Source: Sanchytrium tribonematis (taxonomy: Eukaryota). Taken from it: a stretch of DNA of 64,000 nucleotides. Every line of letters begins with the position of its first letter. Within the stretch, counting starts at the first letter, position 1. Both the position numbers and the translations under genes were made by a program. The stretch is taken from positions 1 to 64,000 of the forward strand of contig JADGIG010000008.1 in NCBI GenBank assembly GCA_018985235.1, written 5' to 3'. Below are positions 873 to 50,283 of the stretch, piece after piece. The notes beneath the pieces were generated by a model that did no database searches, was not told the DNA's origin, and saw only the letters and a list, made by a program, of their open reading frames with translations.

Positions 873-2613
873 ATGCAAAAATTGTCAGAGCTTCAGCAAA
901 AATATACAGAAGATCCTTCGTTATTCGAGCCCTTGTTACTTGAGTATGAAAAGGTCATTTGCAAGAATTCAGAAATAGCTATAAAATTGAATTTGGTGGA
1001 TAAATTATTTATTTTATGGAAATCTCAATTACAACCCGGATCTGAATTCAAGCGGGTGATATTAACGGCCATTGGGAGCTTTAATTTAATGTCTCTTGTA
1101 TATTTACACGAGTTGCCAACAAATAAGAGCACTTTCCATACTGTACAACTTGAACACTGTATAAGCTTAAAAAAATCAAGTAAGGCCCTTCCTTCTAGAC
1201 AAATTCATGCAATATTGTTAAACAAAATATTTTCTGCTTTATCAGATGTACATCGTTATTACAACAAACAATTTGATGAAGAAGATACAACGGAAAGCCA
1301 TTATTCAATGACTGCAGTTCAATACTTTTATTTTGATGGCAAGCCCTTGAATCAACTTGGAATGTTTTACCAATATGAGGCTATCAAAAGGCCAACTGAT
1401 AAGCTTCAGAATGGTGTTTATACTTTTTACTTTTATCTATACGCCAATTTAACTCCTTATCCTTTTAAAAAGAGCGAAGAAAATTTACAACATTTCATCA
1501 AAGTATTTCTTGGCTTAATCATGGTGGATGTGCATCCATTTTCAAAAATGCTGTACTTGCTTTTTAAGTGGTATGCCCGTCAGGATGTCGACTACGCGGA
1601 TACCGATAAATTGATAATCGATTCATTAAACGATGAGTTCCAAAACATCGTTTTTAAATGCTGTGTTGGCCTCTTTCAATTTCTAGATGGGAAGGGATCG
1701 GTATTGCTAGGTATTTTAAGATTATTTAAAAAATTTCACAAAAATAATCAATTAGCTGTTAACTTTATCAATTTTATGGTCGCTTATAAGCCCAACATTG
1801 ACAATTTGCTAGGTGAGGAAATAATTGCTGGCGTAATTTATACTCATATAGGAATATGCTGCCTGTGTCTCAATCTTGGAGGCTTCAAGTCCTGCTAATT
1901 CAAATCTTTTTGTGGTTTCAATATTTGATTTCGACTTGTGCCATCTTAAAAAAGTTGGGCAACTCATTGGAAACTTGGCGCTTTCTATTATTGAAAAAGA
2001 AGGCCTTACAGATGACCAAGATGTCAGCAAAATAATCATCGGCTCAGCCTCGAAGCTATGGACTGATAAAATTCCGTATTTCTTGCATATATATGATGTC
2101 TACAAAAAGTCTTCGATGAGTCAAAGTGCAATGTCTAGCGTAATTCCCATAAAACTGATATCTAGTGATGTCGAAAGTGTTTCCACGCTTTCAAAATTGC
2201 TAAAGGCCAAATCTTGTTTACAATCTGAGAAAACGATTGCTGTCATTGCCACCGAGAAGTGCGTCAATTCTCAATTTATACCAAAGCTAGTAAAATGGGT
2301 CTCTGAAAATAAGCTAATTTTAGTAATTCCACATGTAGTGAATGATTTAGTTACTAAAAAGGCACAGAAATTTAACACAGAGGCATCCTGGAAGCTTTTG
2401 TTTGACACTATTAATGCAGAAATTGCAAAGCCAAAGCATACAATAATTCTTCAAGATTCTCTAGAAAGCTCAACTGTTGAAGAAAGTTATGAGACAATGA
2501 AAGAAATCTGCCTTAAGTTGGATTCTGCCAAACTGTTTGTTCTAGGAAGCATGAAGGACTATCTGAAAATTCCAACTATCGATATTTATTCATTAGAGCA
2601 ATTAGTAAAATAA
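873..2613 (+). CDS. Est1/SMG5-6-7-like protein with C-terminal PIN-like domain; join(873..1832,1852..2613), 573 aa
   Basis: DGKPLNQLG and FYFY..A.LTPYPFKKSEENL match EST1 domain motifs; LILVIPHVVNDL is PIN-like. A 19-nt intron fuses the two ORFs in frame. Confidence 0.7.
1833..1851 (+). other. 19-nt spliceosomal intron GTAATTTATACTCATATAG
   Basis: Removal joins ORF 873 to ORF 1876 in frame (AG|EYAACVSILEAS). Confidence 0.85.
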
Positions 2614-2914: not shown

Positions 2915-3704
2915 TTACTTAAGAGGAGAACATTTTAAAGGCAGCATGATTGTGGATCGCATGGACTCGACCAACCTTACTGTATGGTAAACTGTTTCCG
3001 GCCACTCTTTTTCCTTCCATGCCTGTTCTCTCTGGTATTTTCTAGCCAATAAATCGGGATACTAAATTAAATAAGATTACGCCCCAAACATGATGCACCT
3101 TGTGCAATGCACCAACTTGAGAAAAATAAGCACCATAAGACTGACAATACTTGGTACGACATGACAAACCCTTTTTCCAATAATGCTCCCATTCTAATAA
3201 ATATCCAGGCTTGACTGAATATGTTCTTAATTCAAAAATATTATTCTTGTGTGGATGCTCGTAGGGATCCCAGAAACTAAATGACAAATTAATTTGGTTT
3301 GACCTTTTCAATACAAATTTTCTTAAATCTTTTTTGTAATCATTGTACTCTTTCATTTCATGTAAAATCGACATTTTGTGTGTAAATTGTTCATAAGACT
3401 TGAATTCCCAAATATGAATACCTGTATCTAATTCTCCGATATCAGATACGAATGATCCTTTTAGCGGTACAACTTCAGAAAATATGGGATAGTAATGGTT
3501 CACGCAATCTTCGTACTCTTGAAAATACTTGGGATTTACGTTATGAAACGTAAATTCAGTAATTTGGTCTGGTTTTGCGAGAAGTTTTGATTGTGTATCG
3601 TCTTTGTACGCCATATCTTTAGTATCTATGCCGTATAGTACGCTATGTAATATATTTCGGTTTTTAGCAATATTGATTTGCCTTGTAAAAAGCTTTTGTA
3701 TCAT
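2915..3704 (-). CDS. NIPSNAP family protein; one intron, 256 aa
   Basis: IFELRTYSVKPG and VHHVWG motifs. Splicing restores YPDLLARKYQREQAW...PLKCSPLK*, the typical NIPSNAP C-terminus. Confidence 0.9.
3062..3080 (-). other. 19-nt intron GTAATCTTATTTAATTTAG
   Basis: Restores VHHVWG|YPDL in NIPSNAP. Confidence 0.92.
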
Positions 3705-3841: not shown

Positions 3842-6365
3842 ATGCAATCAACCGAACTGCGCGAGTTGCTTTTGAGAAATCAATCTGGAGCTGGCGCTAG
3901 TATTCTAAATGACTATATTCATAATCACTCGAGAGATATTAATTTTTATAGAGAATTGCTGTCTATATTTCAAACGCAAAATGATAGAGTTGGCAATTCA
4001 GCCGGATTAGTTCTTAAAAATCACATCTACAATATAAGCGATCCAGCATTTATTGAATTTGTTGTTAGTGAATTGTTGAAAATGCCGAGAGATGACAGAT
4101 TTAGAGTGGGAGTAATTGGCACAATAATTGGCAAACTTTGCTTACATTTCCCTCAAATTCCAATATCTCAACACATTCTTGAATTATTAATTAATGAGCC
4201 GTCAATTCCCATATTTAATATAATATCAAGAATTTGTCAAGAGAAACCAATGGATCTACAGCCTGTTCATTTTTCAGTTATCTTACAAAATCTCACTGAA
4301 GATGGATATGCATTATTTGCATTTGAAATTATTAATGTTAGTATAAATTCTTACAATATTGATGGATTTATTCCAGAATTAATACATGCGCTGACAATAG
4401 TCCCGCAACTTTATAGACATCAATCACTTCAGCTACTTGCAAAAATTGCAGAATCAAAGAGCCAAATACTTGTGCAAGCAAACTTTGAAGCTACCTTGAA
4501 ATATGTTTTAGAAAATTTTGATCTTGATGGAGCTGAATTTATTTTAAGTTTCATAGACAATGATAGCGTTCGTGATGCTCTAGTTCCATATCTTCCGGGA
4601 CTTGTTCCTTTGTTGCTTCAAGGTATGCAGTATACAGAGGAGGAGGTAGAATCTACGTTAGAGGATTCGGAAATTGCACCACGACATCACTTAACACAGG
4701 TCCATAATCAACAAGAAGATAGTGAAGACGACGACATAGATTTTTATGGAGAATGGAATCTACGAAAATGCTGCGCATCTGCAATTGATTCGTTGTCTTT
4801 TTGCTTTAAACAACAACTAACTGGAATTATTTTGCCACTTTTAAAAGATTCATTTCATAGTCAAAATTGGCTGGTGAGAGAAGCGGGTATTTTAGCTTTA
4901 GGAGCCATTGCGGATGGTTGTGAGCATGATTTAAATCCATACTTAGGAGAATTAATCCCTTTCTTGGTCACATGTGGGAATGATTCTCATCCACTAGTTT
5001 CATGCATTGCTCTGTGGTCCATGTCTAGATTTGCATTATTCATTTCGAACTCATACGATCAAGATCCTGGTCTCTTCTTTGAGCCATGCCTTCAGAGTAT
5101 TTTAAAAGGAATTGTGAGTCAGCATTTAAAAGTTCAGGAAGCTGGATGCTCCTCGCTAACCTACTTGTGTGAGCAGGCAGGGCCCTCTTTAAGCCCTTAC
5201 AAAGCCGACATAATGAATGCAATCGTACCTTGTTTATCATCGTACTCAAAGAAAAATTTAATTATGCTAATGGATACGCTAGGGGCACTTTCGTTTGCGT
5301 TGGGTCATGATTTGAGAGAGGATGTCGTAATGCAAGCTATTATTCCTCCTCTCCTAGCCTATTGGGATAGGGTAAAAATTGTAGATGTAGTCTATCCAAC
5401 ACTTTTAGATTGTTTGCAACATTTGTTTGTAGCGTTTGGACCACTTTTGCTTCCATTTAGCAAACAAATTATTTCAAAAGCAGGTGGGACTATTATTCAT
5501 GGTCTTGCAGATATGCAGCAACACGGTCTCGATTCCCTTTATGATGCCACGCATATTGTATGCTGTTTAGATTTGATGAGCGGACTGTTGAACGGATTAG
5601 GTGAACAGTCTTCAGATTTCTTCCAATATAAGGAAAATCTTAATCAAATTTTAGGTTCTTGTCTGTCCTTTGGGGAACCAGAGATACTGCAAGCTACTTT
5701 TGGACTGTTGGGAGAGCTTACTCTTTTCCAACCTCAGTCAATAGATAGATTTCTTCCAATGTACTATGAAGCTGCAATTTCTGCAATTCATTTACCTACT
5801 TATGAAACTGAGGCAAGAGCCATATCTAACGCGACATGGTTTTTGGGTGAATTGGTCATAAGATCTGATGGTCAAATTGAAAACATAGATGTGGCTATTG
5901 ATAAAGTTGTCAAATTATTGATTCTTTGTTCAGTACAAGGCAATCAGCAATTTGACGAGTCAAAAATTATAAATACGAGTTTGACTGAAAATGCAACAGT
6001 GACTGTAGCAAGGTTTGCACTTTATCATCCAGACAAAGTTTTAGCAGCCTTGAACTCCTCCTTTGAAGTTTTCATCAAGATGCTTAATCTTTTACACGAT
6101 ACTTCTGAGAAGATGAGTGCATTTTCTGGACTTTTCGCAATGGTGTCACTAAACTCAAACATAGTAGCAACTCATCTTACTCGGGTGCTGTCTGAAATTG
6201 CAAATTGTAAGACGAACGAAAGAGATTTATTCGAAATAATTAAGAGCGTACTTTTCGTTAATTTAGATTGTTCATCACACAAAGCAATACTCCAATTTTA
6301 ATGCGAGTTACTCGCAACTCACTTCGGAAGAAAAAACTACATTGAAGCAACGATATCATGTTTAA
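3842..6365 (+). CDS. TNPO1: Transportin-1/Kap104 (importin beta-2); join(3842..6247,6267..6365)
   Basis: Acidic loop EDSEDDD then EWNLRKCCASAID, REAGILALGAIADGC, HEAT repeats. Spliced C-terminus ends LKQRYHV*. Confidence 0.9.
6248..6266 (+). other. 19-nt intron GTACTTTTCGTTAATTTAG
   Basis: Fits the consensus and gives a transportin-like C-terminus (..LKQRYHV*). Confidence 0.85.
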
Positions 6366-6387: not shown

Positions 6388-7885
6388 TCAGTATTCTTCT
6401 TCAGGAGTCTTGATTTTATCTTGAACATTTGATTTAAGTATTTGCTCTGGTATTTTCTCTGCAATTTTGTGGGCACGCTCTATACCATTCGTATTGTATT
6501 GGATGTTTCTGAAAGGCTCAGAAGCAGCAGCCGCCACAAAATATTCTGCAGAGCTCTGAATTATATCAGCTATACTCGAAATTTTTTTCATATTTGAAAC
6601 TTTTAATGTTGCTTTCTTGTTTAAAGCCTCTTTGGAATCGTTTTCAGGCAAAAATTCATATAATACTGTTACTTTTCCTAAGTGTAACTGTAATTGTTGA
6701 TCCAATTGTTCCAGCAATTTGTCAAATGTTCTAAATTTAAATTCAGAGACTAAAACCTTAATCCCAGTATGGTTTGCAATTCCATTAGGGAAAACTGTAA
6801 TTGATTTCTGTACTTTCTAAGTGAAATAATTTTACCTGTGTTGCTGACTCCCTTCTTGTAATTGATAGATTTTGATAATTACCAGAGGCAGGATATTTTT
6901 CTAGAGATTTTGAAATGCACACTACATTTAATCCCTCATACAAGCTGGAAAGCTCTGTGATCTCAGTTTTTAAATCCAACAAAAAAATGGCCCTAACTGG
7001 CCCTTCTCTTGGTTTAAGTGCAAATGACAAATTTGAATAAAGCTGTTCCATATTTTTACAATTACGATGATTTAAAGTCAACGTCTTCGGGGTCTCTTTG
7101 TCATATCCGCTTAAATGCGCCAGTATCTTGATACCCTTTCCGCCGTATTCAAAGGCATTGTCCTTTTTTATTTGTTCTTTAACAGATTTCACTTCCTGAG
7201 CAATTGATGCATTTTTGTCTGTGACTTTTTCTGAGGCTGTAGCTGGTCTTTCGGTTCCCACAATCTTGTATTCAAAGTTTCTCGGTTTAGAAATTTTGGG
7301 ATTACCGTTTGCAATAAGAGTAATTCCATCATAAAAGTCGTCGAGAGCAAGCAGAGGTTTGAAGCTTTTTGCATCAAATACGCTTTTGACGGTTCCTTCA
7401 TTCCATTTCAACTCAGTGCTTAAATACCCAAGCATTTGTTCGAAAGTTTTGCTATTTCTGTAATTTAAAACAAGCCTTTTCGGATCGTCTTGATTTTTGC
7501 CCTCCGCATAAATATAAACTTTGAGTCCTTTAGAATCAGGTGAAAAATATGATTTGGTGTTATCGAGTTCATTATTTACCTTCTTCTCCACTACATTTGC
7601 TTTTTTCTCCAACATATAATTACATGCTACGAAATTATCTCCAGAGGACGCGACATAGACTTGGCTATCTTGCAATTCTCTCAGACCCATAATCTCACTT
7701 CCATTTATCGTAAATAGCCTTCGTACTGCACCACTTTCTAATGTCAAAGATTTTGAAACATCGGCAGTGAAATTCGCCCAATTCTTATATATCTTGTACG
7801 TCACAACAAATTTTTTACCCGTAAAATGAGTGTCTCCATTTTTCAGTATAGTAATTCTGATCGGGTTGAAGTCATCTGTGCTCAT
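6388..7885 (-). CDS. Doublecortin (DCX) domain protein with four DCX-like repeats; one intron, 492 aa
   Basis: RITILKNGDTHFTGKKF...GAVRRLFTING is a DCX domain. Three further repeats follow, the fourth (SITVFPNG..FRTFDKLLEQL) appearing only after splicing. Confidence 0.85.
6817..6835 (-). other. 19-nt intron GTAAAATTATTTCACTTAG
   Basis: Joins ORF 6785..7897 to ORF 6388..6717 through an open DCX-like segment. Confidence 0.9.
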
Positions 7886-8750: not shown

Positions 8751-9442
8751 TTATTGGTAATTACATACAACTACATTACAAGAGCGAGACATTCCACAAC
8801 CTACTGTAGCATAATTTCTCATTATTTGGTAGTGTCCACCATAAGCACCTAAATAAGATAAAATAAACCTTCAGACGCCCACATCTTGGCACTATCTTCG
8901 TATGTAGAGGTCCAGGCCATATTCTGACCACTGGCACCTCTCGGTAGATTTGCATGTCCTGAAGGGCATCCACTTGCGTGCATTTGCGCCAATCTAGCTA
9001 TATTTGAATTCCACCGAATTGGGCGGCCTCTTACTTGCTGATGAACCGCCAACATTTTGTCTATGTCTGATTGTGATGCACCAGATGAAGGCGGCGCATA
9101 ATAATTTGGGTAATTGGGAGATATTTGCTGATACAGCTCGTGAAAATATGGACTTCGTTGAGAATATTTCTTTTTAAAATTAGAATTTAGACCATGATTC
9201 ACATTATCAATTTTGTGATGGTGGATATAGTGTGGGATGTGACCATAGTGAATGCGTCGATGACTATCAGTAGCGTGAATTGCGTGGTGGTGATGACGAT
9301 GATTCTTATGATTATGACCCGATTTAAAATTAGTGTATTTTGCCTTGTCTTGGCCGTAATTTACATTATTAACTTTATTATGATGATGGATGTTCTCATC
9401 ATCTAGTACAGCAGCGAAAACTGCTATAATGAGAATGATCAT
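8751..9442 (-). CDS. Secreted His-rich CAP/PR-1 (SCP) domain protein; one 20-nt intron, 223 aa
   Basis: Signal peptide, His-rich region, MLAVHQQVR..IRWN..GQNMAW. Splicing adds GHYQIM..VGCG..VVCNY (CAP signatures). Confidence 0.88.
8849..8868 (-). other. 20-nt intron GTTTATTTTATCTTATTTAG
   Basis: Restores the CAP C-terminal motifs GHY, VGCG and VVCNY. Confidence 0.88.
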
Positions 9443-12493: not shown

Positions 12494-13691
12494 ATGGAGA
12501 AAATTAAAAGCAGCTCCACTGCTGCATCTCGGGCATTTGTAATGACCTATGGCACAAGGCATGGAATTTCAACAATTTTAGACATCATTCAACGCAAGAA
12601 ATTTCATTGGCTATATCGCAAAAGTGCTTTGCGGTCGGCAGTTTTTATATTTTGGTTTACTTGGGTGTACAAATATTTCAAAGACAAAAGCTCTAAGTTA
12701 AAAACTTTCATTGCAGGTTTTTTTTCAGGTCTTGGTATTTATTTTGAAAGCAAATCTAATCGAATTACTGTTGTCCAGCAAACCAGTGTTAGAAGCTTGA
12801 ATGGACTATATCATGTCATGATTAGACACGGATATCCAAAAATACCATATGTATACGAAGCCATATATGCTTTGAGCAGTGCTCAGGTCATGTACAATTT
12901 TGTTTTTGCTACGGATACATTACACAAAAGTCTAGTCAAATTTATTGTTAAAGCATCAAATACACCATTAAAAATGCTTGATTTTTATAATGCAGTTGCA
13001 AGTGGAATCCCGATAAATATGATTGAATTTCAAAATTGGTTGAGTAAAAAGAAACCCACAGCTGCTGCAATGTCAAAAGTCAAATCCCTCATCCGCGAGT
13101 CAAAGGATCCCACCAAAGTAATTTTGACCAAAATTCCATCACAAATACAACATTATACCATGGAGAGTGGTATTAAATATACCATTTTTTTATTTTACAA
13201 AACATTTAAAGATATAATTCCAGTTTATACAGGTTTACATGTACTTCCTCGGTTATTTCTTTCGTTCCATTCTTTTTTAGACGCGTACTGTTTTATAATG
13301 TAGCCCGTGGATTAGTTTTAAAGGAGCAATTAGAAGCAGCATATTCTTATCAGTGTTTGTAAGTTCGTTTGAAGCGTTATTCTTGCTGAGTAGATATTAC
13401 GTTCCATACGACTTCAAATTTTTATATTTTATACATGGCGTCATTAGCTCTACTTTATCGATATTCGTTGAATCAGAAAAACGACGCCCAGAATTAGCGT
13501 TATACGTTGTTTCTAAGGCAGTCCATTCACTATACCAATCACTTTCACACAGCAAACTATATCCACGATATCGACACATGGATACCTTCTTGTTTAGCAT
13601 GAGTTCAGGTCTTCTCATGATCCTGTATGAATTTCATCCGGAATCCCTGACGAGAATGTTTTTGACAATTTTGAATAAAACATTAAAATGA
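12494..13691 (+). CDS. TMEM135-like membrane protein; join(12494..13284,13304..13691)
   Basis: AGFFSGL.I.FE, ALSSAQVMY, spliced AIRSSIFLS, and ESEKRRPELALYV. Confidence 0.85.
13285..13303 (+). other. 19-nt intron GTACTGTTTTATAATGTAG
   Basis: Removes an in-frame stop and restores the GAIRSSIFLS motif. Confidence 0.9.
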
Positions 13692-14880: not shown

Positions 14881-15817
14881 ATGTTGTTATTCGATACGAA
14901 TGGTTTCGACTATTCAGACATCAAATTTGAAGACAATATGACTAGTGAAAACAGCCTTTGTAGCATAAATTATTCAGAGGACTATAAACAATTACATTTG
15001 GCATGGTTGCAAATTTATAATGAAGAAAGTGAAAGGGCGCTTCACCTTTCAAAGCTGATAATAGAGCAAAATCCGTCGCATTATGCTGTTTATTTAAGTC
15101 GATTCAATTTGGTAAAAAAATTTAAGAAATCATTGTATTTAGAACTCTGTTTTATTTCTCAGATTATTTATAATAATTTAAAAAACTATCAAGTTTGGAA
15201 TTATAGACAAGTTATCGTACTCGAGATTATCAAAAGCTTGAAGGAAAATGATGGAGGAGCTATTTTGCAATATGATTTTGATGAGAAGGATGAAGAAGTT
15301 GTTTCCAAAAAACAGTTAGTCAAAAGTGAATTGGAATATGTCCATTCTACTACTGATATTGAGCCAAAAAATTATCACGCCTTTACCTACCTGTATCATC
15401 TACTTCCATATTTTGACGAGGAAATATTACATTTGGAAATTCAATTTACATCGGAGGAAATTGAAAAAGACGTTTTTAACAACAGCATTTGGCACTACCG
15501 TCTGCAATTATTGAAAAAATCTAAAAACTGGCTGGATACGGAATTAATTTTGATATTAGAGTCACTAAGATTATCAAATTCTAACGAGTCAATATGGGCA
15601 CACATCACAGGGTAATGCGTAATAATTTAGAATCGAAGAAATTCATGGAAATCTTCAGAAAATCTATCAGTACTGCGAGATGGTCGAGAAAAAATCACTT
15701 TTTACTTGGATTTATCTTGTAGAACATGGCGCCGATAAAGAATTGTGCTTAACAAATATTTTAAAAGAGGACCCAATCCGAATAGATTTTTGGAAAGCTT
15801 ACGTGAAAGAGTTGTAA
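14881..15817 (+). CDS. RAM2: Protein farnesyl/geranylgeranyltransferase alpha subunit; one intron
   Basis: NPSHYAVY, KNYQVWNYRQ, KNYHAF and FNNSIWHYR PPTA repeats; spliced tail DPIRIDFW. Confidence 0.92.
15612..15630 (+). other. 19-nt intron GTAATGCGTAATAATTTAG
   Basis: Removes a stop and adds the conserved DPIR..W C-terminus. Confidence 0.92.
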
Positions 15818-18058: not shown

Positions 18059-20268
18059 ATGGAAAGAGAACAAATTGAAGATCTAATGGATTCTCCAGAA
18101 GATTATGTAGATTCTGAGCGGAATCCCTATTACAGCTATAGACAGGACCAAGAAATCAAATACAACTTCAGCTTAACCGAAGATGAGCGCATTATCATGC
18201 AAAATTTTAAAAAATGTTTATTATTGAGGAGTGAAAATATTACTGAATCTCTGCAAAAAGATCAGGACAACCCTAAAAACAAGAATGATTGGCACATTTA
18301 CCCGTATCCTCCTGCACCGTCCTACAAAGGAAAGGAGAGAGTTGAAATTTATGTTCCGAAAGAATTTTCTATGAGTGAAGTTAAATTTCCTGCAGCTGCT
18401 GAATCTTCTTTGTCATATAAAATGATTGACGGTGTGTTCCATTCGTTTGTCAATGATAAGAAAATAACAAATGTTGGGAGTTTTGGAGATTATTATAGAG
18501 ATTTGGAATATATTATTGATGTTATATCTGACGGTCCTGCGAAAACCTTTGCTTTTAGACGTCTTAGGTACCTAGAATCAAAATTTCAAATGTATACCTT
18601 AGTCAATGAAAGCCAAGAAATTTCTGAGACAAAACTCAATTCCCATCGGGATTTCTACAATGTCCGTAAAATCGATACACATATTCACCTTTCCTCATCT
18701 ATGAATCAAAAGCACCTTCTTCGGTTTATAAAATCAAAAATTAAGAAAAATTCAGACGAAGTCGTCATTTTTCGTGACGGAAAACATTTGACGTTAGCGG
18801 AAGTTTTTAAATCTTTAGGACTCCAGGCTTACGACCTGAGTATTGACACTTTAGACATGCATGCTCACAAAGACTCTTTTCATCGTTTCGATAGGTTTAA
18901 TCTTAAATATAATCCATTAGGTGAGACTCGACTACGAGAAATCTTTTTGAAAACAGACAATTATATCAAGGGAAGATATATGGCGGAACTTGTAAAAGAG
19001 GTAGTCACGGACCTCGAGCAGTCTAAATACCAGATGGCTGAATATCGGGCAAGTATATACGGACGTTCTAAAACAGAATGGTTGAATTTATCGAAATGGG
19101 TTGTAGATAACAAAATCTTTAGTAACAATATAAGATGGCTGATTCAAGTGCCTAGACTCTACAATTTATATAGGGAGAAGAATATAGTGCGTAATTTTAG
19201 TGATTTTATTGATAATTTATTTGAACCTTTATTTGAAGTGACTTTAAATCCGCAAGCCAATAAGGAACTTTTCGTGTTTTTAGAGAGAGTGGTTGGGTTT
19301 GATTCTGTGGACGATGAATCCAAATTAGAGAAACGTGCGTTCCGCAAGTATCCTCTTCCACAAGAATGGACTTACGATAATCCCCCATATAGTGTAGTTT
19401 TTCTTCATTTAGTATTATTTATATTACATGTATGCTAATATCGCAACACTAAATCAGCTAAGAAAGCAAAGAGGTTTAAATACTTTTGTACTTCGACCTC
19501 ATAGTGGAGAAGCTGGGGATACAGAGCATTTAGCTAGTGCCTTTCTCACTAGCTACGGAATATCACACGGAATCTTGTTAAGAAAGGTACCAGCCCTTCA
19601 ATATATGTACTATTTGCACCAAATAGGGATTGCCATGTCACCTTTAAGTAATAATGCACTATTTTTGAGTTATGAAAGAAATCCATTATTATCATACTTT
19701 AATAGGGGTCTAAACGTGAGTCTTTCTACTGATGATCCTTTGCAATTTCATTTTACCCGCGAGCCTTTAATTGAAGAGTACTCTGTGGCTGCGTAAATTT
19801 AACTTATTTAGTCAAATATATAAACTAAGTTCTACGGATATGTGTGAATTAGCCAGAAATAGTGTCCTTCAATGTGGTTGGGAAGACAAGCTGAAAAAGT
19901 TCTGGCTAGGACCGAGTTTTAAGCAATGCGGGGTTGCTGGAAATGACATAACAAAATCGAATGTCCCAAATCTGAGAATATTATATAGATATACTACTTT
20001 GGTAGATGAGCTCTGCCTTGTTCTGGGCATCGTTCAACGTCCCCAACCAGTCATTTTGGATGGACACCTAGCGAACGCTCAAATTTTGTCACCATTTAAT
20101 CAATTGCAAATTGATGCCGCTTCCCGAAAAATTTTGAGCTGTTGCGCTGTTCCTGTTGAAGTCAATGTTCCGGAAATGACAAGCGAACATGTTGCTTTTG
20201 GGAAGCTATCGAAACCTCACAGTCCAAGAGCGACAAGTCCTCATCCAAATGATCTAGAATTAAATTAA
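18059..20268 (+). CDS. AMD1: AMP deaminase; two 19-nt introns, 723 aa
   Basis: [33 protein letters not shown]; spliced [14 protein letters not shown] and EEYSVAA|QIYKLS. Confidence 0.97.
19394..19412 (+). other. 19-nt intron GTAGTTTTTCTTCATTTAG
   Basis: Restores the highly conserved [14 protein letters not shown]. Confidence 0.96.
19793..19811 (+). other. 19-nt intron GTAAATTTAACTTATTTAG
   Basis: Restores the conserved [24 protein letters not shown]. Confidence 0.96.
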
Positions 20269-20275
20269 TTTTGAT

Positions 20276-21193: not shown

Positions 21194-21346
21194 GCAAAAA
21201 GTTTCAAAGATTTCTCCACATTAGTACATTTGCTTTATTATAAGTTCCATATTGTTGCGTTGTGGTGTTTAAATATTAATTAACTAAGCTTATCAAAAAT
21301 TCAAAAGACTTTTGAAGAACAAAATATTTGTGTTTGGGCCGAAATT

Positions 21347-21679: not shown

Positions 21680-21683
21680 TAAA

Positions 21684-21893: not shown

Positions 21894-21927
21894 GAGGAGA
21901 AAGAAAATTGTAATTTATTGATAAAGG

Positions 21928-23178: not shown

Positions 23179-23227
23179 AATTTTCTAATAAATATTTTTT
23201 AAGGGGATTAATCGTTTTATTTTGATC

Positions 23228-25802
23228 CTATTGTGCTTGAGCGCATCTAGAACAGATATCTTCCTCACAAATCTTTTTCCAGCACCTCTTGCATTTCTTC
23301 ATACTAGCTTTTTGTACAGTGATGTCAGCCACATCTTTTAAAATCACTTTTGAGACACCCAACAAGTCACTTAAATCGTCATTAAATGCATTCGGCTTGT
23401 TTGGTAATATTACGTATGCATCCATCGGGCTGGAAACAAATTGATTCTTGATGCTAGAGTCCAAAATTCTATTAACTTGAGTTCTTAATACTGATATCTC
23501 TGCGAAATCATTTTGAATAGATTCATTCTCATAATTCAAATTATCAAAATTTAAATTGAACACAGATTTTTCGTTTCCCAAAACATGATAGGCTTCTTCA
23601 GCTAAAGCTGGGGTAATAGGTGCAATCCATTTTAGAAATGCTAATAAAATAATTTCTAAAGTAAAGATTGCCGATTTGCGTCTTCTGCTATCAATATGGT
23701 CACAATACAGTCTATCTTTAATTGTCTCAAAGTAAGGAGCTGATAGTTTTGATGCTACAAAAAAATTAATAGCCTGCACGACAAGATGGTATTCATATTT
23801 TGAATAATGTGATATAATCAATTTGTGAGATGCTGATAATTCAGATAAAATCCATCTATCAATGGCGGACAAGTCTGTATAGGAAGTCTGCAAGCTTAAT
23901 TTATCATTCAAGTTACCAAGCATGTATTTCACAGCTATCCTCCAGCGCTTTAGATCTTTTCCGACCTGTTCAACAATTCTTTTCCCAATTTGCACATCTT
24001 TTGTAAATTGAGTAGAAGCGCACCAAAATCTAAGACCGTCCACGCCAATTGCTTTAAAACCACTTCCACCATGAATTACTTGCTTCGGATCCACAACATT
24101 GCCTAAACTCTTACTCATTTTTTTGCCTTTTTCATCCAAAACAAATCCGTGGCAAACAATTTGCTTTGTCGGAGATCTGCCATTGATAGCAACAGAAAGC
24201 AGCATTGAACTTTGGAACCAGCCTCTAAACTGATCGTTTCCTTCGATATACACGTCGGCTTGTCCGTTTAGAGTTGACCAAGATACACCACTATCAAACC
24301 AAACATCCATAGTATCATCTTCTTTTGTGAGATACTTTTCCAAATATTTGTATTTTTCTGGTAGAAACTCGCCTACAGGTAGAGTAAACCAAGAATCTGG
24401 TCCTTGACGCTCAATGATGCGATATATTTGATCCAATATATCATCTGTCATGTATGGCTTGTTATTTCTCTTATCATACATCATTGGAATTGCGACTCCC
24501 CAAAACCTAAATCAAATTAAAATACCTTTGCCTTGAAATGCACCATTCGGCTCTGGAGGTGATACTTTTTGAAAGCTTTTCCTTTCCAAAATTAGGTACA
24601 AATTGAGTTGCATTAATGCATTCTAGCGACAATTCTTTCAGTTTGTCTACTCTGCAAAAATACTGCAAGGCGGATCGGGTTATTATTGGTTGCTTTTTTC
24701 TCCAGTCAACAGGATAAGAATGTTTATAAGGCTCAACTGCTAAAAGATTTCTATTATTTCTTAGTAGCTCAATAACTTTCACGGTCCCAGCTTCTAAAGC
24801 CTGTAAGCCGATAAGTTCTGGAATTCCGCAGTTTGGATCAAACTCACCCGACTCGTTAACAGGACAATAAACTTTGATGTTTTCTTTCTTTGCCACGATA
24901 AAGTCTTCCATTCCATGTCCTGGCGCGATGTGAACTAAGCAGGTTTGTCCGTCAGTTACATGATCACTATGAACAATACGATGGCGAGTAGATAGCAAAG
25001 GGTGTAAATAAGTTTGAGTCAGAAGCTCTTCAACTTCAATTTTTTCTGTTCCTAATAAGGAGGAGTTCTTTATGTGCTCTAATTTTTTAATGAAGGATTT
25101 ACCAACGATAATAGTTTCATCTCGGAATATACATTTTACGTATTCTAAAGATCTGTTCAAAGATACAGCCATATTAGCCGGTATTGTGTAGGGCGTTGTA
25201 GTCCACACGAGAAGGGAAATTCCACGGTCTAGTTGACAACGCACAAAAACTGACTGACTAGTTATATCTTCATATTCGATTTCGGCTTCGGCTAATGCTG
25301 TTTGATTTGCTGGAGACCAGTAAACAGGCTTATAATCTCGGTAAATTAAGCCTGATTTGTAAAGATGATTAAATATTTTCATTTGTTTAATTACATAGCT
25401 TGTATCCATAGTTTTGTAAGGATTTTTCCAATCACCAAGTATATTCCAAGATTGAAATTGCAAGCTCTGCTGTTTCAGACAGCTAAGGGCATATTGTCTA
25501 GCTTCTGAACGAATTTCCAGTGGATTTTTTGCCTTTTGTCGGGCTTTCAATTCTACTGGAAGACCGTGAGTATCAAACCCTGGTCTCATGTAAACTTGGT
25601 TGCCCCGAAGAAGTCTATACCTCAAGGTTATATCTTTAATAATTTTGTTAAGCGCATGGCCAATATGCAAATTACCTGAACAATAAGGCGGTCCATCGTG
25701 AATGACAAAAGAAGGGCCAGTCTTAGTAGGCATCTCTTTCTCGACGTAAGACGTTGAATTTTTTAATTTGGTAACGGGTAAGCGGACTTTTGCTATTTGC
25801 AT
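23228..25802 (-). CDS. ISM1: Isoleucyl-tRNA synthetase, mitochondrial type; one intron
   Basis: HDGPPY, HIGH, WTTTP, spliced WCISRQR|FWGVAIP, GNDQFRGWF, KMSKS, C-terminal CxRC zinc site. Confidence 0.93.
24507..24525 (-). other. 19-nt intron GTATTTTAATTTGATTTAG
   Basis: Restores the invariant SRQRxWGxxIP motif. Confidence 0.96.
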
Positions 25803-27299: not shown

Positions 27300-27315
27300 A
27301 AATAAACCAATTAAT

Positions 27316-33728: not shown

Positions 33729-35005
33729 TTATTTCGTGATCATACTCAATCTATCAGGCCCAACACCAATATACTTAATATTGACTTTTAAGAAATTTTC
33801 AATAAACAGCACATAATTCTGGGCATTCTGTGGCAAATCTGAAAAAATTTTGCAATTCGAAATGTCTTGTTTCCAGCCAGGAAATAATTTATACTCAATA
33901 ACCACGGAGTCTAAATGATCCAAGTCTGCAGGAAACAATTTCACAGACACACCATTAATTTTGTATCCAACTGCAACTTTGATTTCTTCCATTTCATCAA
34001 GTACATCTAATTTTGTCAAATTAATACTAAATTAATTAATAAATACATGTCTACACCATTAATCAAGCAAGCGTACTTAACGAGAACAAGATCCAGCCAG
34101 CCACACCTTCTTGGTCTACCTGTTGTTGTTCCATATTCATGACCTTTCTTCATCAAATGTTCGCCATTTGCATCCAACAATTCTGTTGGGAAAGGTCCAC
34201 CACCAACTCTAGTAGTATATGCTTTGACGACACCGTATACTGTTCTGAGTTGTTTTGGTGTTATTCCCAAACCAGTAATAGCACCACCAACACTACAGTT
34301 GCTAGAGGTCACGTAAGGGTAAGTCCCATAGTCTATGTCAAGCATAGTGGCATTTGCGCCTTCAATAAGAATTCTCTTCCCAATATTTTCATGTAGATAC
34401 TCGATAGTATCTGCGACCATTGGTTCAATTATTTTCTTCAAATCCTTATATCTTTCCAACTCTTTCGTAATGTCGTATTCGAATTCGCCATAACGCTTCA
34501 TTCGATTGTTAACTAAAGATTGATAGCGATCAGAAAATTCTTCAAAACTTCCCATCAAATGATGGATCCTTATACCGCTTCTGCTTGCTTTTGTGGAATA
34601 GCAAGGACCGATGCCTTTTTTAGTCGTACCAATATTGGACTTTCCAAGCTCTACTTCTTTTAAACCGTCAACAATTTGATGACAATCGAAAACTAAATGG
34701 GCCCGATTAGAAATGAGCAACCTCTCCCTAATATTCACTCCCAATGCTTCCAAGTCTTCGATTTCTTTCAAGAGTGATGGCAAATGAATAACGCATCCAT
34801 GCCCGATGATTCCTGTCGTTTGTTTGTGTAACAAACCCGAGGGCAATAAATGAAATTTGTAAACTTTTCCTTCTAGAGAAAGAGTGTGTCCAGCATTATT
34901 TCCTCCAGCACATCGACAAATCATATCGACATTTTCACAAAGTATATCCACCAGCTTACCTTTACCTTCATCGCCAAATTGTAAACCCAACAATAAGTTT
35001 GCCAT
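33729..35005 (-). CDS. ADE12: Adenylosuccinate synthetase; one 20-nt intron, 418 aa
   Basis: [31 protein letters not shown]; spliced [16 protein letters not shown]. Confidence 0.97.
34027..34046 (-). other. 20-nt intron GTATTTATTAATTAATTTAG
   Basis: The frame difference between the ORFs requires length 2 mod 3; removal restores ING...NLTKLD. Confidence 0.93.
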
Positions 35006-35864: not shown

Positions 35865-38644
35865 ATGGGAAATGACTTAATTGAAAAAATGGAGGAAGAC
35901 AAATCTGCCGTTCGTTTTCCAGTAAGTCATGGAAACTGTAATATCTATTGATGTAGGTGGATCGTTTGTATATGTGGAGCCTGAAAAAACTGGAGAATCG
36001 TATGTTGTAGCGCGTATCATGCAGAAACGAGGCGAAAAAATATTGTTGAATGCTTTTTTTCGCCCTTCAGAAGTTCTAAGTGGTAGAAGCTTTCATCCCA
36101 GATTACTCGTTGCCTCGACACAATCTAAATGGTATTTTGAAAAGCAAATGGCAGGAGAGTGCCAAGTTTTGCACATTTCGCAGATTTATGACCTAGAAAG
36201 GTACTGCGCAAAAGAAGACGCATTTTACTTTGAACAGCTATACGATCTCTATGCAAAAGAAATTTACGACGTTGTAAGATCTAACTTAAGCAGGTCACCA
36301 GAGGAAAATGTAGAAAGTTTGGTCAAATTTCCATTTATTTACACAGAGGTAGGCCACACTCTAGAAATCATTAATGCTTATGGTTGGTGTGGTATATGTA
36401 CTAGTTTTTGCCGCAAATCAGATGACGATTACTTTGAGTGCGCTGGTTGTAGAAATAGGTACCATTTCCATTGTTTTAATCCTAGAGATTTATCAGATCC
36501 CTCTCAAAAAATGTGTAATGTGTGTCATAAAGAATCAAAAAGTACAGATTGGATAGCCACCATTGATTCAAATCAAAAATTATTGACAACTTACAAAGAC
36601 TTTGATACAACACCATTGGATGTAGAGTCTATGAATCTAGAGTGGCCGTTTAGGTATTTTGGTATCAATACAAATGAAAAGTCTAGCTTTGACACGGATA
36701 ACAGCATTGTTTTTCCAAGATCTTCTGTCAAAGTGGGTCCATCTTTACAAGTCGCCATTCCAAGATTCATAGGGGATGGAGATTTCATGGATGTCGATGA
36801 GGTTTCTGAGGACAGACAGGAGGACGTATGGCTGTCTAGATATGGTAAAGGTCTACTTCAACAGATGGAAGAAGAAGAACAGGTAGATAGATCCAACTCA
36901 GCAATTTTAAAGTACAAGATTACTTCTGGAGTTGACATAGATGCAGGTAAATTGGGTTAAATTAGTTTCTGTATTTGTCAATCAAACTTGTGAGAAATTA
37001 CTTGGAGACGCCAGAGGCTCCTGTCAGTTTCGGCAATTTCTACATGAATGTCTATATGAAGAAGAATTTGACTTTTCAAAAGCAGAAGTTGTTTGTCAAA
37101 ACTTTTCAAAAAAAGATTTATTCAATTGCTCTGACTTTAGTACAACTCCAATATTCCCGTTATTAGGTAAATACCGCTGGCTTGAAGAGGTAGAATTTGG
37201 AAAAGATGGCGATAGAATGAACCAGCCTATTCGTGACAGGGGTCATGTCTTGTACAAAATAGCAGAGACTTTTAAAATTCCAACAAAAGCCGTTTGTCAA
37301 TTTTTTGCGATGTGGAAGAAAAGCGATAATCAACGCCAAGCCTACGATTTTCATTTAAGGAAATTTTTAAACTCAAAAAAGTTTAACAAAAAGGCTGAGA
37401 CTCCTCCACTTCCAGAAAAAGAAGAGGAACTAAGTGTGCATGAAACCGATCTAGACAATTCAAGTGACAGCGAAAGCAGTCTTGGTGTAGAGGCTGTCAA
37501 AGTGCCTCATTGTGACAATTGTTACGCTTCTAATCCAGATACTTTGATCCCCACCTCAATTTTTCAAGGCCGACACTCCAAAAAAAGACGAGAAATGTTT
37601 TGCAAAAGTTGTGGAACATGGTGGCTTAAGTACGCGACTACAAAGCCTGTTCCGAGAGAAACGAAATCCAATAATAAGGGACATCTTTTTGAATCTGGAA
37701 AGAAAAGTAAACAAAGAGAATCTTCGAATCATCAAACAAGTTTTCAGGCAGTTCCCCCACGGTCAATTGTTCCGCACATTCCATGTGGTGTATGTTTAGA
37801 TGATATCAAAACTGATGAGGATGGAAAGGTGGAGAATATTAAAGCTGTGAAATGCGTTTCTTGTAAAATAGCAGTGCACAAAATCTGTTATGATATTCCC
37901 AGACCAATTCATCCTTTAGAAGAATGGCAGTGCGATGTCTGTATATCCAATGTAAGCAAAGAACCCGGTTGTTGTTTATGTGGAAAAGTAGATCCTCAAG
38001 TCAACGCTTACAAGACTTTTCAAGGAAATATAGCCCATGCCGTCTGCCTCTATAGCAATGAATCATTCATGTTTTGTAAAGAAAATGGCATTAGACAGCC
38101 AATTCTTTACAAAGACATTGTTGATACTCAAGATATAACCTGTTTCTATTGTCATCAAAAAGTCGGTTGGAAAACGTGTTGTGTTATGCAAGGATGTGCT
38201 AAATGGTTTCATCCTGTCTGTGCAACTCGAGCAAGTGCAGCATTCACATATTTTAAAAAGGCGATGAGATTTTTTTGCTCCGACCATATGACGCCTTTAG
38301 TTCCATTCGATATCCATGATCCGCCTAATTCTATTAAAGACGTAACTAGAGCATCCCGGATGACAAAGGTGCAAGAAGAGTTGCGATATAATAGAACAGA
38401 ACTTGGAAGTGTGACGGCCCCAGATTTTGATCGAAACACACCGATGATGATGTACAGTGATCCAAAAATTGATATTAACAAAGCAAATATTAAAAGAGCT
38501 ATGCGTAAGAGCTCCGCACATATGAAAGTTCCAGAGTTTCCACCGTGCTGTCAGTGCATGAGAACTGCTTTTCCAGTTTTGTGGATATCTGAGTCTTGGA
38601 AATGTCTCAAATGTGTCAGAATCTCTTTGAACTCAGAAGAATAA
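35865..38644 (+). CDS. Snt2-like BAH-PHD-ELM2-SANT-ZnF-PHD-ePHD chromatin protein; two introns
   Basis: BAH (FVYVEPE..FYFEQLYD), PHD, ELM2 (VKVGPSLQVAIP), GATA-like finger (CKSCGTWWLKY), PHD and extended PHD. Start codon uncertain. Confidence 0.8.
35938..35956 (+). other. 19-nt intron GTAATATCTATTGATGTAG (probable)
   Basis: Fits the consensus and joins the upstream ORF to the BAH domain in frame. An ATG at 35929 is an intron-free alternative. Confidence 0.7.
36947..36965 (+). other. 19-nt intron GTAAATTGGGTTAAATTAG
   Basis: Joins the ELM2-containing ORF to the downstream SANT/PHD ORF in frame. Confidence 0.88.
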
Positions 38645-39105: not shown

Positions 39106-40393
39106 TTAAAAAGCGTTTATTTTGGAATAAACTATAACTTGTAAATTTTGCAAAGAGGTAGACATCAATTTCAATTCTGTAGAAACGCTTTCTTTTGTAT
39201 TTTCAAGATCCAAAATAGATGACGCGTCGTCAATCTGTCCTATTATTTTGTCATCCAGAATCATTTTTACAACCAGAATCTTGATTGTATCCATAGAGAC
39301 ATGTATTTTTTTGGCTAATTCGTTCAGTGAAATTTTGGAGGTACCATGACAAGCAGTAAGTATAGTCTGAAATCTAATTTCTTCTAATGCATCATCAACG
39401 TAGCCTCTGATAAATGGATCAGATAAAAATGTAAGTTCACCTTCTACATTAATAAGAATAACGTTTCAAGATTTTTTGGAATTCTTCAATATTTTCAGTT
39501 TGATAAGCTTCCATTAGGGCCGTCAATCCAACAATTTCCTCGTCCGTTTTGAACGGTTTCGTTTCCGGACTCTCGAATGGATTTATGCGACTACTGCTTA
39601 AAATATTGCAAAGAACTAAATATTTAAGCACTCGAATCCTTTCGTAGGCTCCAGCTTCGTCATAATTTTTAAAGGACTCAAAAAACTCAGTTCTAGCAGC
39701 ATCAAAATTCTTTTGCTGACAGTGCATTTTCCCACCACATTCACGGATAATGCCTGTAATTTTAGGATGTGGAACAGCAGATCTAATAGTAAGAGTCTTA
39801 TTGTAGAGCTCTTTCAACTTTCTATTATTTTTGGTCTCTGAATAGTATTGAATTTCTAAAGCCGCGACCTCTAACGATTGAGTAGCTTGTGTTTCTGATG
39901 ATTCGCTAATCCTTTCCTGTAATTGTCTGAAAATTTTAGGCAAAGGTTTAAAATTTCTTTCAGCGAGATAAAATGAGGCTAATTTGAGATGCACTTTTGT
40001 CCAAATCCTACTATTATCATAATTGCTTAAGTATTCTGCAATAACAAGTAATAATTTGAGTGCTACGTCGCTTGAGCTATGATGCCCAGTAAAATCGACC
40101 AGATTATTGATTGACTTTTCAAAATAGTAGGGCATTAATTTCGAAGAGAAACCTAAAACTTCTTTGAGTTGGTCAGCTGCATCAGAATTTGATATTAATA
40201 GACACTTGTAAATTTGTTTCTTGGCTTTAAATGCAAAATCTCCTTCTGTAATTTCCTTGAATTGTATAATAGCTTCTTTGGGATTATTTTCTTTAATTGA
40301 TTTCGCATAATAATACTTGTTTTCGACTTCCGCAATCTCATCATTCACATCACTACCGAAGTCATCGCGAAATCCAAAATCGTCTTCATCCAT
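39106..40393 (-). CDS. CSN2: COP9 signalosome subunit 2; one intron, 422 aa
   Basis: ENKYYYAK, FKAKKQ, SAVPHPKITGIIRECGGKMH, FFESFKNYDEAG; spliced DPFIRGY and PCI domain. Confidence 0.95.
39444..39462 (-). other. 19-nt intron GTTATTCTTATTAATGTAG
   Basis: Restores DPFI and the PCI domain; GTT donor. Confidence 0.9.
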
Positions 40394-49700: not shown

Positions 49701-50283
49701 ATTTTACTAAGCATTTGCTTCCTTTGCATCAGTAAAGGTAAGCCTTTAGATAAGCTGTCCAGAGAAAGACCCCAAGGAAATATCTTTAATTGGTATGTAT
49801 TATTAAGTGTGTTAGGACAAACTTTAATTCATGGAATCTGCTTTTATCAAGTTACTGCACAGGTACATGCAATTGAAGGGGAGCTTGAATTCGATTTTGA
49901 AAATAAGAAAAAATTTGAACCCTCTCTGCTCAATACTTGTATATATCTTCTTTCAATGTCAATGCAAGTCAGCACATTCTGGGTTAATTACATAGGTCGT
50001 CCATTTCGAGAAGATATTAGAGAAAACTCGTTACTGTATAGAGGGCTGTTAGCTGGAATTGGTGTAGCTTTTGCTGGAGTTTTAGAAATATTTTCAGACT
50101 TTAATAATTTCTTGCAACTAGTTCCTCTCTTTGATGTAATTTTGATTCATTTAGCTGAAAAATTATCTGGGTGCTGTAATGTTGTTTGATTTTTTTGGTT
50201 CTTTCATTTGGGAAAAGTTGTGTTTTAAATTCTTTTCTGATTCTGGTAGAAACAAGATTAACGAGTTTTTAGATTTGGAATAA
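46758..50283 (+). CDS. SPF1: P5A-type ATPase Spf1/ATP13A1; one intron
   Basis: LSGES, VPPELPMELS, CFDKTGTLT, MAGDGTNDVG, GDASIAAPFTSK; splicing supplies the last TM helix. Confidence 0.96.
50136..50154 (+). other. 19-nt intron GTAATTTTGATTCATTTAG
   Basis: Gives the final TM helix (LGAVMLFDFFGSFIWEKLC). Confidence 0.9.

What the first reader, a model, noticed from the sequence alone, without database searches (positions are those of the whole stretch)
19394..19412. Branch point fused to acceptor at a fixed distance: T(-8)-N-A(-6)-N-N-TAG in 17 of 17 introns
Seen: aligned on the 3' end, all 17 introns have T at -8, A at -6 and TAG (never CAG or AAG). Position -5 is a pyrimidine in 16/17 and -9 in 15/17, for example TTCATTTAG, TTAATTTAG and TTGATGTAG. 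Known: this fits the yUnAy branch consensus, and Stentor introns also have a conserved A about 6 nt from the 3' end. Inference: there is no room for a polypyrimidine tract, the 3' splice site is chosen by a ruler mechanism, and the lariat loop is only 14 nt (15 nt in the 20-mers). The extra nucleotide in the 20-nt introns lies 5' of the branch A.
Basis: partly seen in the sequence, partly recalled or inferred. Interest (0 to 1): 0.8.

Follow-up and report, generated by a model that had tools for sequence, protein, structure and literature searches.

The report
Nineteen-base introns in a sanchytrid fungus
Genes of this small alga-parasitising fungus are interrupted by inserts almost all exactly 19 bases long that are likely removed by splicing, each ending in the same compact signal that likely joins the branch point to the cut site; such tiny introns are known from ciliates and a few parasites, and my searches found no description of them in this fungal group.

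Summary
The window is from a sanchytrid fungus (nearest named relative Amoeboradix gromovi). I rebuilt 17 introns (15 of 19 nt, 2 of 20 nt); all have T-8, A-6 and TAG. The 19-nt motif occurs 16 times against 1.7 at other lengths. Six junctions are fixed by homology without the motif; one of the 17 is doubtful. A related species reads through the same AMP deaminase intron in a 19-nt register with A-6 and T-3 forced. Branching at -6, a 14-nt lariat loop and no pyrimidine tract are reasonable but untested (no RNA). A 'ruler' is not shown: the acceptor is always the first AG after the branch A, which ordinary scanning at minimal spacing also gives. The -6 geometry is known (Stentor, Yarrowia). What looks new is the lineage: no paper in my searches describes sanchytrid introns, and the published proteomes came from intron-blind ORF calling, so proteins are cut at these introns. 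The sister species lists U2AF, BBP, Prp16/17/22 and Dbr1, but not Slu7 or Prp18 (weak absence). This scan noted similar, longer introns in Rozella and Neolecta.

The parts
19394..19412 (+). 19-nt intron 1 of AMP deaminase (the finding); putative branch A at 19407
   Evidence: best of 7 frame-restoring choices against homologue profile; uninterrupted A. gromovi P0124; same-position intron in relatives P0123 and P0125
19793..19811 (+). 19-nt intron 2 of AMP deaminase
   Evidence: best of 7 choices, 1083.7 vs 1056.9 bits
18059..20268 (+). AMP deaminase gene, three exons, 724 codons after splicing
   Evidence: Pfam PF19326 in three consecutive pieces
34027..34046 (-). 20-nt intron, adenylosuccinate synthetase
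   Evidence: best of 3 choices; ORFs of P0002 and P0003 stop just past the same site
24507..24525 (-). 19-nt intron, organellar-type isoleucyl-tRNA synthetase
   Evidence: best of 5 choices against three uninterrupted close relatives
39444..39462 (-). 19-nt intron with GTT donor, PCI-domain (CSN2-like, by recall) gene
   Evidence: beats the 22-nt NAGNAG alternative, 442.0 vs 437.7 bits; relative P0361 stops inside the same intron
3062..3080 (-). 19-nt intron, NIPSNAP gene
   Evidence: Pfam profile continues from position 53 to 55 across the junction
61281..61299 (+). 19-nt intron, Get3/ArsA ATPase
   Evidence: frame rescue, Pfam PF02374 on both exons; junction judged by eye against a recalled family motif
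8849..8868 (-). 20-nt intron with GTT donor, CAP-domain gene
   Evidence: frame rescue; weak Pfam CAP hits on both exons, below cut-off
6248..6266 (+). 19-nt intron near the 3' end of an importin-beta/transportin-like gene
   Evidence: frame rescue; last exon judged by eye
50136..50154 (+). 19-nt intron near the 3' end of a P-type ATPase gene
   Evidence: frame rescue; last exon judged by eye; no Pfam hit on the last exon
1833..1851 (+). 19-nt intron, unannotated gene
   Evidence: frame rescue only
6817..6835 (-). 19-nt intron, doublecortin-domain gene
   Evidence: frame rescue only; a motif-less 19-nt alternative at 6795-6813 also restores the frame and was not scored against homologues
13285..13303 (+). 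19-nt intron, TMEM135-like gene
   Evidence: frame rescue only
15612..15630 (+). 19-nt intron, prenyltransferase alpha-repeat gene
   Evidence: frame rescue only
36947..36965 (+). 19-nt intron, BAH/PHD gene; the one with a purine at -5
   Evidence: frame rescue only
63084..63102 (-). 19-nt intron, Sel1-repeat gene
   Evidence: frame rescue only
35938..35956 (+). doubtful 19-nt intron near the start of the BAH/PHD gene
   Evidence: full motif match but an unspliced start at 35929 is also in frame
41111..41129 (-). decoy: 19-nt GTA..T-G-A-C-A-CAG match inside an unbroken glycosyltransferase reading frame; not an intron
   Evidence: removal would cut 411 codons to 198 at the DXD-type motif

Best explanation
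These 19-20-base inserts break conserved reading frames and are likely ordinary major-spliceosome (U2-type) introns shrunk to a size floor, whose 3' end is likely read as one nine-base unit, Y-T-N-A-Y-T-T-A-G, with the A at -6 predicted to be the branch point. Shown: the inserts, their lengths, their motif, and exact frame restoration against homologues. Inferred steps: (1) BBP/SF1 and U2AF bind the fused branch-acceptor unit and U2 snRNA pairs around the -6 A; (2) the donor is little more than GT(A) (G at +5 in 0 of 17) and is picked as the GT 13 or 14 bases upstream of that A, closing a 14- or 15-nt lariat loop; (3) the acceptor is the first AG after the branch, at about the shortest spacing the second step tolerates, which would make Slu7/Prp18 dispensable; (4) deletion pressure from above and these two steric minima from below give the near-fixed length, with no special measuring device needed.
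For: Length peak and motif far above chance. Six junctions fixed by homology without the motif all carry T-8, A-6, TAG (about 5e-7 by arithmetic from the base frequencies). Leave-one-out weight matrix ranks the 17 as the top 17 of 663 GT..AG 19/20-mers on both strands, so the intron sequence alone can specify the sites. Relatives: P0125 reads through AMP deaminase intron 1 in a 19-nt register that forces T-9, A-6, Y-5, T-3 and T+5; P0361 stops in the PCI-gene intron with T at position 12 (= -8 if 19 nt). Sister-species annotation lists U2AF35, a U2AF65-like protein, BBP, Brr2, Prp16, Prp17, Prp22, Dbr1, cactin (rows seen) and identifiers for Prp8, SF3B1, U1-70K, Prp40, Cwc22, Isy1, Cwc25 (counts only). 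Slu7 is unnecessary in yeast when branch-to-3'SS distance is 9 nt or less (PMC10158995, passage). The erosion-to-threshold model is proposed for mikrocytids (PMC10245619, section 7). Two sense-strand full-motif decoys ending in CAG sit in unbroken frames (41111, 6556), so the T-rich -4/-3 bases may matter.
Against: No RNA evidence of splicing or of the branch nucleotide. No U1, U2 or U6 snRNA could be examined (no genome; no Rfam match in the window). In 8 of 17 introns another A pairs with U2 as well as or better than -6. n is 17 from one 64-kb window; 6 rest on frame alone and 1 is doubtful. Slu7/Prp18 absence is from an annotation covering about half of the predicted proteins, which also lacks U1C, Cwc15, Yju2, FAM32A and SNRNP27 identifiers. 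Two sense-strand TAG decoys with T-8 and A-6 are tolerated in coding DNA (271, 20640), so the core motif is not sufficient.
Confidence: 0.7

Rival explanations
1. A modified spliceosome measures distance: it cuts a fixed 5 bases past the branch A (and 13-14 bases before it) and would ignore an AG at any other spacing. This is the first reader's ruler, and the 'caliper' proposed for the Bigelowiella nucleomorph.
For: Branch-to-AG spacing is invariant in 17 of 17; no excess of motif matches at 17, 18, 21 or 22 nt or at other A offsets; the AAG three bases downstream of 39444 is not used by homology score; where several GTs precede one acceptor (19394, 63084) the one giving 19 nt fits; caliper idea in PMC6009652 (passage).
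Against: Every one of these facts also follows from first-AG choice at minimal spacing plus a preference for GTA. No intron offers an AG between the A and the acceptor. The same -6 spacing occurs in Yarrowia lipolytica, whose introns are long (median 204 nt; PMC2483917), so it needs no tiny-intron machine.
Confidence: 0.2
2. The introns are real but T-8 and A-6 are a protein-binding part of an extended acceptor (as the UUUCAG of nematodes), and branching happens at another A, such as -7 or -10/-11.
For: In 8 of 17 introns another A pairs with U2 as well or better, e.g. -10/-11 in 24507, 34027, 50136; Stentor's putative lariat loop is only 10 nt, so an upstream A is not excluded by size.
Against: -6 is the only A present in all 17, and in 19394 it is the only A between +6 and -3; the pattern of pyrimidines at -9, -8, -5 is the one predicted by U2 pairing around -6.
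Confidence: 0.07
3. The breaks are not spliceosomal introns: assembly frameshifts, decayed genes, translational bypass or a non-spliceosomal cut.
For: No transcript was available; the DNA run that covers the sites may be the window's own source.
Against: Each insert has GT..TAG ends and a shared motif; removal restores conserved enzymes to the residue; relatives break at the same sites; contigs of run X1 show no indel over 14 of the 17 sites; core spliceosome genes are in the sister species and a Prp6 gene lies in the window.
Confidence: 0.03

Closest known systems
15-16-nt introns of the heterotrich ciliate Stentor coeruleus (PMC9505925; passages read)
   Same: Two adjacent lengths; GTA donor; putative branch A six bases from the 3' end in both length classes, so the extra base lies 5' of the A; U-rich; retained core spliceosome.
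   Different: Here 19-20 nt with a 14-15-nt loop instead of 10-11; a clear T-N-A branch consensus (Stentor has no strong one); a fungus, so an independent origin.
Fixed branch-to-AG introns of Yarrowia lipolytica, Trichomonas and Giardia (PMC2483917; passages read)
   Same: Branch site anchored next to the acceptor with no pyrimidine tract; in Y. lipolytica two bases between ACTAAC and AG, which puts the A at -6 (my arithmetic).
   Different: Those introns are much longer (Yarrowia median 204 nt, Trichomonas 104) with strong ACTAAC; here the branch motif is degenerate and total length is also fixed.
Short introns of the microsporidian Encephalitozoon cuniculi (PMC6349667 and PMC2483917; passages)
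   Same: Reduced parasite in the fungal lineage; about 25-nt GT-AG introns; listed branch consensus CTAAYTT resembles this 3' end (that the AG follows directly is my recall, not read).
   Different: About 36 introns per genome, many right after the start codon, highly reduced spliceosome; here about one intron per three genes, spread along genes, 19 nt, larger spliceosome; sanchytrids are sister to Blastocladiomycota, not microsporidia.
16-17-nt introns of Mikrocytos and 18-21-nt introns of the Bigelowiella nucleomorph (PMC10245619 section 7; PMC6009652 passages)
   Same: Very narrow size range near the known lower limit.
   Different: Nucleomorph introns have no discernible branch A; mikrocytids have only 17-19 spliceosomal proteins and no introns in metabolic genes, whereas these lie in AMP deaminase and adenylosuccinate synthetase.
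22-27-nt introns of myxobolid myxozoans (PMC13644364; first third and passages read)
   Same: Parasite, ultra-short introns, U2AF1 and U2AF2 kept.
   Different: There the conserved A residues move away from the AG as the intron lengthens (anchored to the 5' end); here the A stays at -6.

Membership tests
U2-type (major) spliceosomal intron | GT..AG ends | tested here: met
   17 of 17
U2-type (major) spliceosomal intron | Removal restores the conserved protein | tested here: met
   scored against homologues for 5, Pfam continuity for 1, by eye for 4, frame only for 6, doubtful for 1
U2-type (major) spliceosomal intron | Branch A in a site that pairs with U2 GUAGUA | tested here: inconclusive
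   3-6 of 6 pairs at -6 in all 17, uniquely best in 9 of 17; tested against the canonical U2 motif (PMC13685798), not this organism's U2
U2-type (major) spliceosomal intron | Removed from mRNA through a lariat | not testable with these tools
   no RNA run listed
U2-type (major) spliceosomal intron | Major spliceosome encoded in the lineage | tested here: met
   Prp6 in the window; U2AF, BBP, Brr2, Prp16/17/22, Dbr1 rows in the A. gromovi annotation; snRNAs not seen
U12-type (minor) spliceosomal intron | RTATCCTT donor and TCCTTAAC branch site (motifs recalled) | tested here: not met
   neither motif in the 17 sequences
Ultra-short, narrow-range introns (heterotrich, mikrocytid, nucleomorph kind) | Nearly all introns within 2-4 adjacent lengths at or below 21 nt | tested here: met
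   15 x 19 and 2 x 20; no motif excess at 12-18 or 21-60; one window only, and motif-less in-frame introns would be missed
Ultra-short, narrow-range introns (heterotrich, mikrocytid, nucleomorph kind) | Conserved A at a fixed place from the 3' end, as in Stentor | tested here: met
   A-6 in 17 of 17; forced in relative P0125
Ruler (caliper) 3' splice-site selection | An AG is used only at the set distance, even when another AG comes first | tested here: inconclusive
   no intron has an AG between the -6 A and the acceptor
Introner / transposon-derived intron family | Sequence-similar copies with target-site duplications or terminal repeats | tested here: inconclusive
   the 17 share only the signals by inspection; AG|GT on both sides in 2 of 17; no formal repeat test, and 19 nt leaves little to compare

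The most novel reading that the evidence does not exclude
Sanchytriomycota evolved, on their own, the shortest and most uniform spliceosomal introns in Fungi: a phylum-wide 19-nt class with a 14-nt lariat loop, no G at +5, a fused branch-acceptor, and loss of the second-step factors Slu7 and Prp18 from an otherwise well-stocked spliceosome; and new 19-nt introns are still being inserted species by species (the tRNA-synthetase intron is absent in 3 of 3 close relatives), by a route that must create a complete signal at exactly this length.
Probability: 0.3. Interest if true: 0.75.

Novelty: new member of a known kind. Interest (0 to 1): 0.55.

Why it matters
It adds a further independent origin of ultra-short, fixed-geometry introns, inside the fungi proper and below the roughly 25 nt reported for E. 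cuniculi, and the branch A again sits at -6, which suggests a common physical floor for branch-to-acceptor spacing. With a fungal-type spliceosome the comparison to yeast structures is direct (which parts must change to fold a 14-nt lariat; whether Slu7/Prp18 are lost when spacing is minimal). Practically, the published sanchytrid proteomes were made by ORF calling on genomic contigs (PMC8371127), so proteins are cut at such introns (here AMP deaminase 459 instead of 724 residues, adenylosuccinate synthetase 329 instead of 420); gene counts and gene-loss calls for this phylum could be affected. At this window's density (17 in 64 kb) a 10-11 Mb genome would hold roughly 2,800-3,000 (extrapolation).

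Tried and rejected
No whole genome is held, so no genome-wide logo, snRNA search or direct Slu7/Prp18 search. No RNA holder listed. Rfam: 0 matches in the window. A degenerate pattern from a sanchytrid-specific AMP deaminase peptide found 0 matches in metagenome contigs; the alignment scan gave 24 loci, none sanchytrid-like, so no second DNA set of introns was obtained. A motif-blind Viterbi gene model was noisy: 19 nt was the commonest length (5 of 18 calls at the stricter penalty) but most borders were wrong. Rejected as introns: 271+, 46142-, 41894-, 31951+, 20640-, 60571-, 8771-, 8725-, 13963- and 57816- (join separate genes), 39095+, and a 12-residue insert in Get3 that lacks GT..AG ends. 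The relaxed terminal-exon scan gave 35 candidates; it recovered 5 of the 17, and the rest were not tested against homologues, so motif-less introns next to short exons are not excluded. An AMP deaminase tree did not resolve whether intron 1 was gained once (one change in 52% of bootstrap trees; the one-clade test failed to run). Sense versus antisense decoy counts (2 vs 3 for TAG) are too small to show avoidance. The lack of G at +5 is not significant against intron composition (p 0.27); it stands out only against the usual fungal donor (recalled). IRE1/HAC1-type 19-20-nt introns (recalled) were rejected: these have GT..AG ends, a branch motif and unrelated host genes. Lee et al. 2010 (PMC3809491) was not held. 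No earlier notes on this genome or look-alike stretches.

Full report
What the window is. It is gene-dense eukaryotic DNA of about 35% G+C with fungal-type genes. The nearest named homologues are from Amoeboradix gromovi: adenylosuccinate synthetase 83% identical against 64% or less for other fungi, AMP deaminase 78% against 62% or less, tRNA synthetase 61% against 41% or less; those three A. gromovi proteins come from one contig, as the three genes lie together here. The five closest AMP deaminases form a clade with 100/100 support. The organism is therefore a sanchytrid (Sanchytriomycota, parasites of algae, sister to Blastocladiomycota; PMC8371127, passages), not A. gromovi itself. No genome was held and no RNA run was listed.

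The observation. 19394-19412 is a 19-base GT..TAG insert in AMP deaminase. Among 7 frame-restoring GT/GC..AG choices of 10-60 nt it scores best against a profile of 111 homologues, as do 19793-19811 (best of 7) and the 20-base 34027-34046 (best of 3). 24507-24525 is best of 5 against three uninterrupted close relatives and splits the conserved tRNA-synthetase motif cleanly. 39444-39462 beats the 22-nt alternative that would use the next AG. The NIPSNAP profile runs on from position 53 to 55 across 3062-3080. Four more junctions were judged by eye against family motifs, six rest on reading frame only, and 35938-35956 is doubtful.

Chance and circularity. Counting GTA..T-N-A-N-N-TAG on both strands gives 16 at 19 nt against a mean of 1.68 and a maximum of 5 at other lengths from 12 to 60 (Poisson p 4e-11); the excess lies only at A offset -6 and only with TAG (CAG 2 vs 2.0 expected, AAG 5 vs 2.7). 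A scan blind to the motif, asking only which GT..AG removals join two long open frames, gave 26 candidates at 13 loci; 11 loci have a 19/20-nt motif-bearing solution and the other two appear to join separate genes. A leave-one-out weight matrix puts the 17 at ranks 1-17 of 663 GT..AG 19/20-mers. Contigs of DNA run X1, possibly the window's own source and so not independent, show no indel over 14 of the 17 sites; 2 of 53 listed substitutions fall in introns, both at free positions (+4 and +10).

Other species. Gene calls made without splicing leave traces. P0125, a relative at about 77% identity, reads through AMP deaminase intron 1 for six codons plus one base, so the intron is 19 nt, and its translation forces T-9, A-6, a pyrimidine at -5, T-3 and T+5, and allows T-8. 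P0123 stops inside the same intron, P0361 inside the PCI-gene intron with T at position 12, and P0002 (A. gromovi) and P0003 just past the start of the adenylosuccinate synthetase intron. P0122 breaks at a site the window lacks; its residues do not fit A-6 at 19 nt but would at 20 or 21 (my reading). So the trait is shared beyond this species, on thin evidence: one length measured, four compatible breaks, one that needs another length. Positions are patchy: intron 1 is in 3 of 5 close AMP deaminases, the tRNA-synthetase intron in 0 of 3 relatives, the PCI-gene intron in 1 of 2, and neither AMP deaminase intron was in outgroup loci (0 of 21 and 0 of 18 that cover the sites; this search favours intron-poor genes). 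The tree does not tell gain from loss.

How it most likely works. The -6 A is the only A common to all 17, and the neighbouring bases are those that pair with the canonical U2 motif GUAGUA (3-6 of 6 pairs; uniquely best in 9 of 17). Branching there gives a 14-nt loop (15 in the 20-mers; only 8849 fixes this, 34027 has A at -7 and -6). Three bases separate the A from the AG, so there is no pyrimidine tract. The donor is weak: A at +3 in 15, G at +5 in none, G at the last exon base in 5 and A there in none. I infer that the 3' unit is recognised first and the donor is taken at the loop-length minimum. The acceptor is always the first AG after the A, so an active ruler and first-AG choice at minimal spacing predict the same; I favour the second because Yarrowia has the same spacing in long introns (PMC2483917) and because erosion to a threshold explains narrow ranges elsewhere (PMC10245619). 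TAG over CAG is not significant by composition (p 0.11), but two full-motif CAG decoys sit in unbroken coding frames, one in a glycosyltransferase DXD-type motif, which hints that -4/-3 matter. Against sufficiency of the core motif, two sense TAG decoys with A at -5 are also tolerated. None of the 17 is a multiple of three, and there is no motif excess at 18 or 21 nt; retention would shift the frame, and identifiers for UPF1 and UPF2 occur in the supplement (counts only). This link is untested.

The machinery. In the eggNOG sheet for A. gromovi (Supplementary file 4 of PMC8371127; the whole first sheet lies in the stored part) I saw rows for U2AF35, a U2AF65-like protein, BBP (in two adjacent ORFs), Brr2, Prp16, Prp17, Prp22, Dbr1, cactin and SNRNP40 and counts for Prp8, SF3B1, U1-70K, Prp40, Cwc22, Isy1 and Cwc25. 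Slu7 and Prp18 gave 0 hits by name, KEGG and KOG identifier (identifiers recalled). That fits the yeast result that Slu7 is unnecessary at spacings of 9 nt or less (PMC10158995), but U1C, Cwc15, Yju2, FAM32A and SNRNP27 also gave 0, only about half of the proteins were annotated, and C. merolae lacks Slu7 despite long spacings. It is a lead, not a result.

Comparison and novelty. It works like Stentor's introns (A at -6 in both length classes) and like the anchored 3' ends of Yarrowia; it differs from myxozoans, where the A is anchored to the 5' end, and from the nucleomorph, with no visible branch A. E. cuniculi introns are about 25 nt and Rozella's about 30. The architecture is thus known. 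For the lineage, searches for sanchytrid or Amoeboradix with intron or splicing terms, for Sanchytriomycota genomes (listing only) and for short introns in fungi listed no paper on sanchytrid introns; the genome paper uses 'intron' once, in a reference title, and called ORFs on genomic contigs; its main supplementary PDF could not be read. Papers seen: PMC8371127 passages and one supplement; PMC10459994, PMC2483917, PMC9505925, PMC10158995, PMC8476143, PMC6349667, PMC6009652, PMC13685798 passages; PMC10245619 passages and section 7; PMC13644364 first third and passages. Earlier notes of this scan describe 25-38-nt introns with similar reasoning in Rozella and Neolecta; none concern this lineage.

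Verdict. Real, well above chance, a new lineage for a known kind of intron; branch position and mechanism inferred; ruler unproven. Interest 0.55.

Noticed in passing
window, all 17 introns: G at +5 in 0 of 17 and no A at the last exon base in 17 of 17; G at +5 is also excluded by translation in four relatives' read-through ORFs (P0122, P0123, P0125, P0361). Several positions were inspected, so the exon-A gap may be chance.
   Followed up: partly
window 10034-12469 (+): Prp6 of 811 residues; against human Prp6 (941) most of the shortfall lies in the N-terminal part, about 130 residues between human positions 47 and 286. A shortened spliceosomal protein in a tiny-intron genome.
   Followed up: partly
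window 24507-24525, 19394-19412, 39444-39462 and proteins P0122-P0125, P0241-P0243, P0361-P0362: Intron positions are patchy among close relatives, which points to continuing gain or loss of 19-nt introns within the group.
   Followed up: partly
A. gromovi annotation, supplement of PMC8371127: The branch-point binding protein appears as two adjacent ORFs on one contig, as expected if a tiny intron splits it.
   Followed up: no
window 6388-7885 (-): A protein with several doublecortin (microtubule-binding) domains, in a fungal group known for a long kinetosome and a non-motile flagellum.
   Followed up: no
window 54285-57446 (+): A 1,050-residue protein with two adenylate/guanylate cyclase catalytic domains.
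   Followed up: no
window 61140-61185 (+): Get3 carries an in-frame insert of about 12 residues that is not an intron (no GT..AG ends).
   Followed up: partly
window 1761-1872, 4973-5104, 7100-7211, 28134-28260, 30849-30901: Clusters of substitutions at about half depth in run X1, as from two alleles or two genotypes.
   Followed up: no
whole window: Extreme compaction: 48 rough gene models drawn by me cover 60,858 of 64,000 bases, with many gaps of under 30 bases.
   Followed up: no
window 18059-35005: AMP deaminase, the tRNA synthetase and adenylosuccinate synthetase also share one contig in A. gromovi (protein names): gene order is kept across the two lineages.
   Followed up: no
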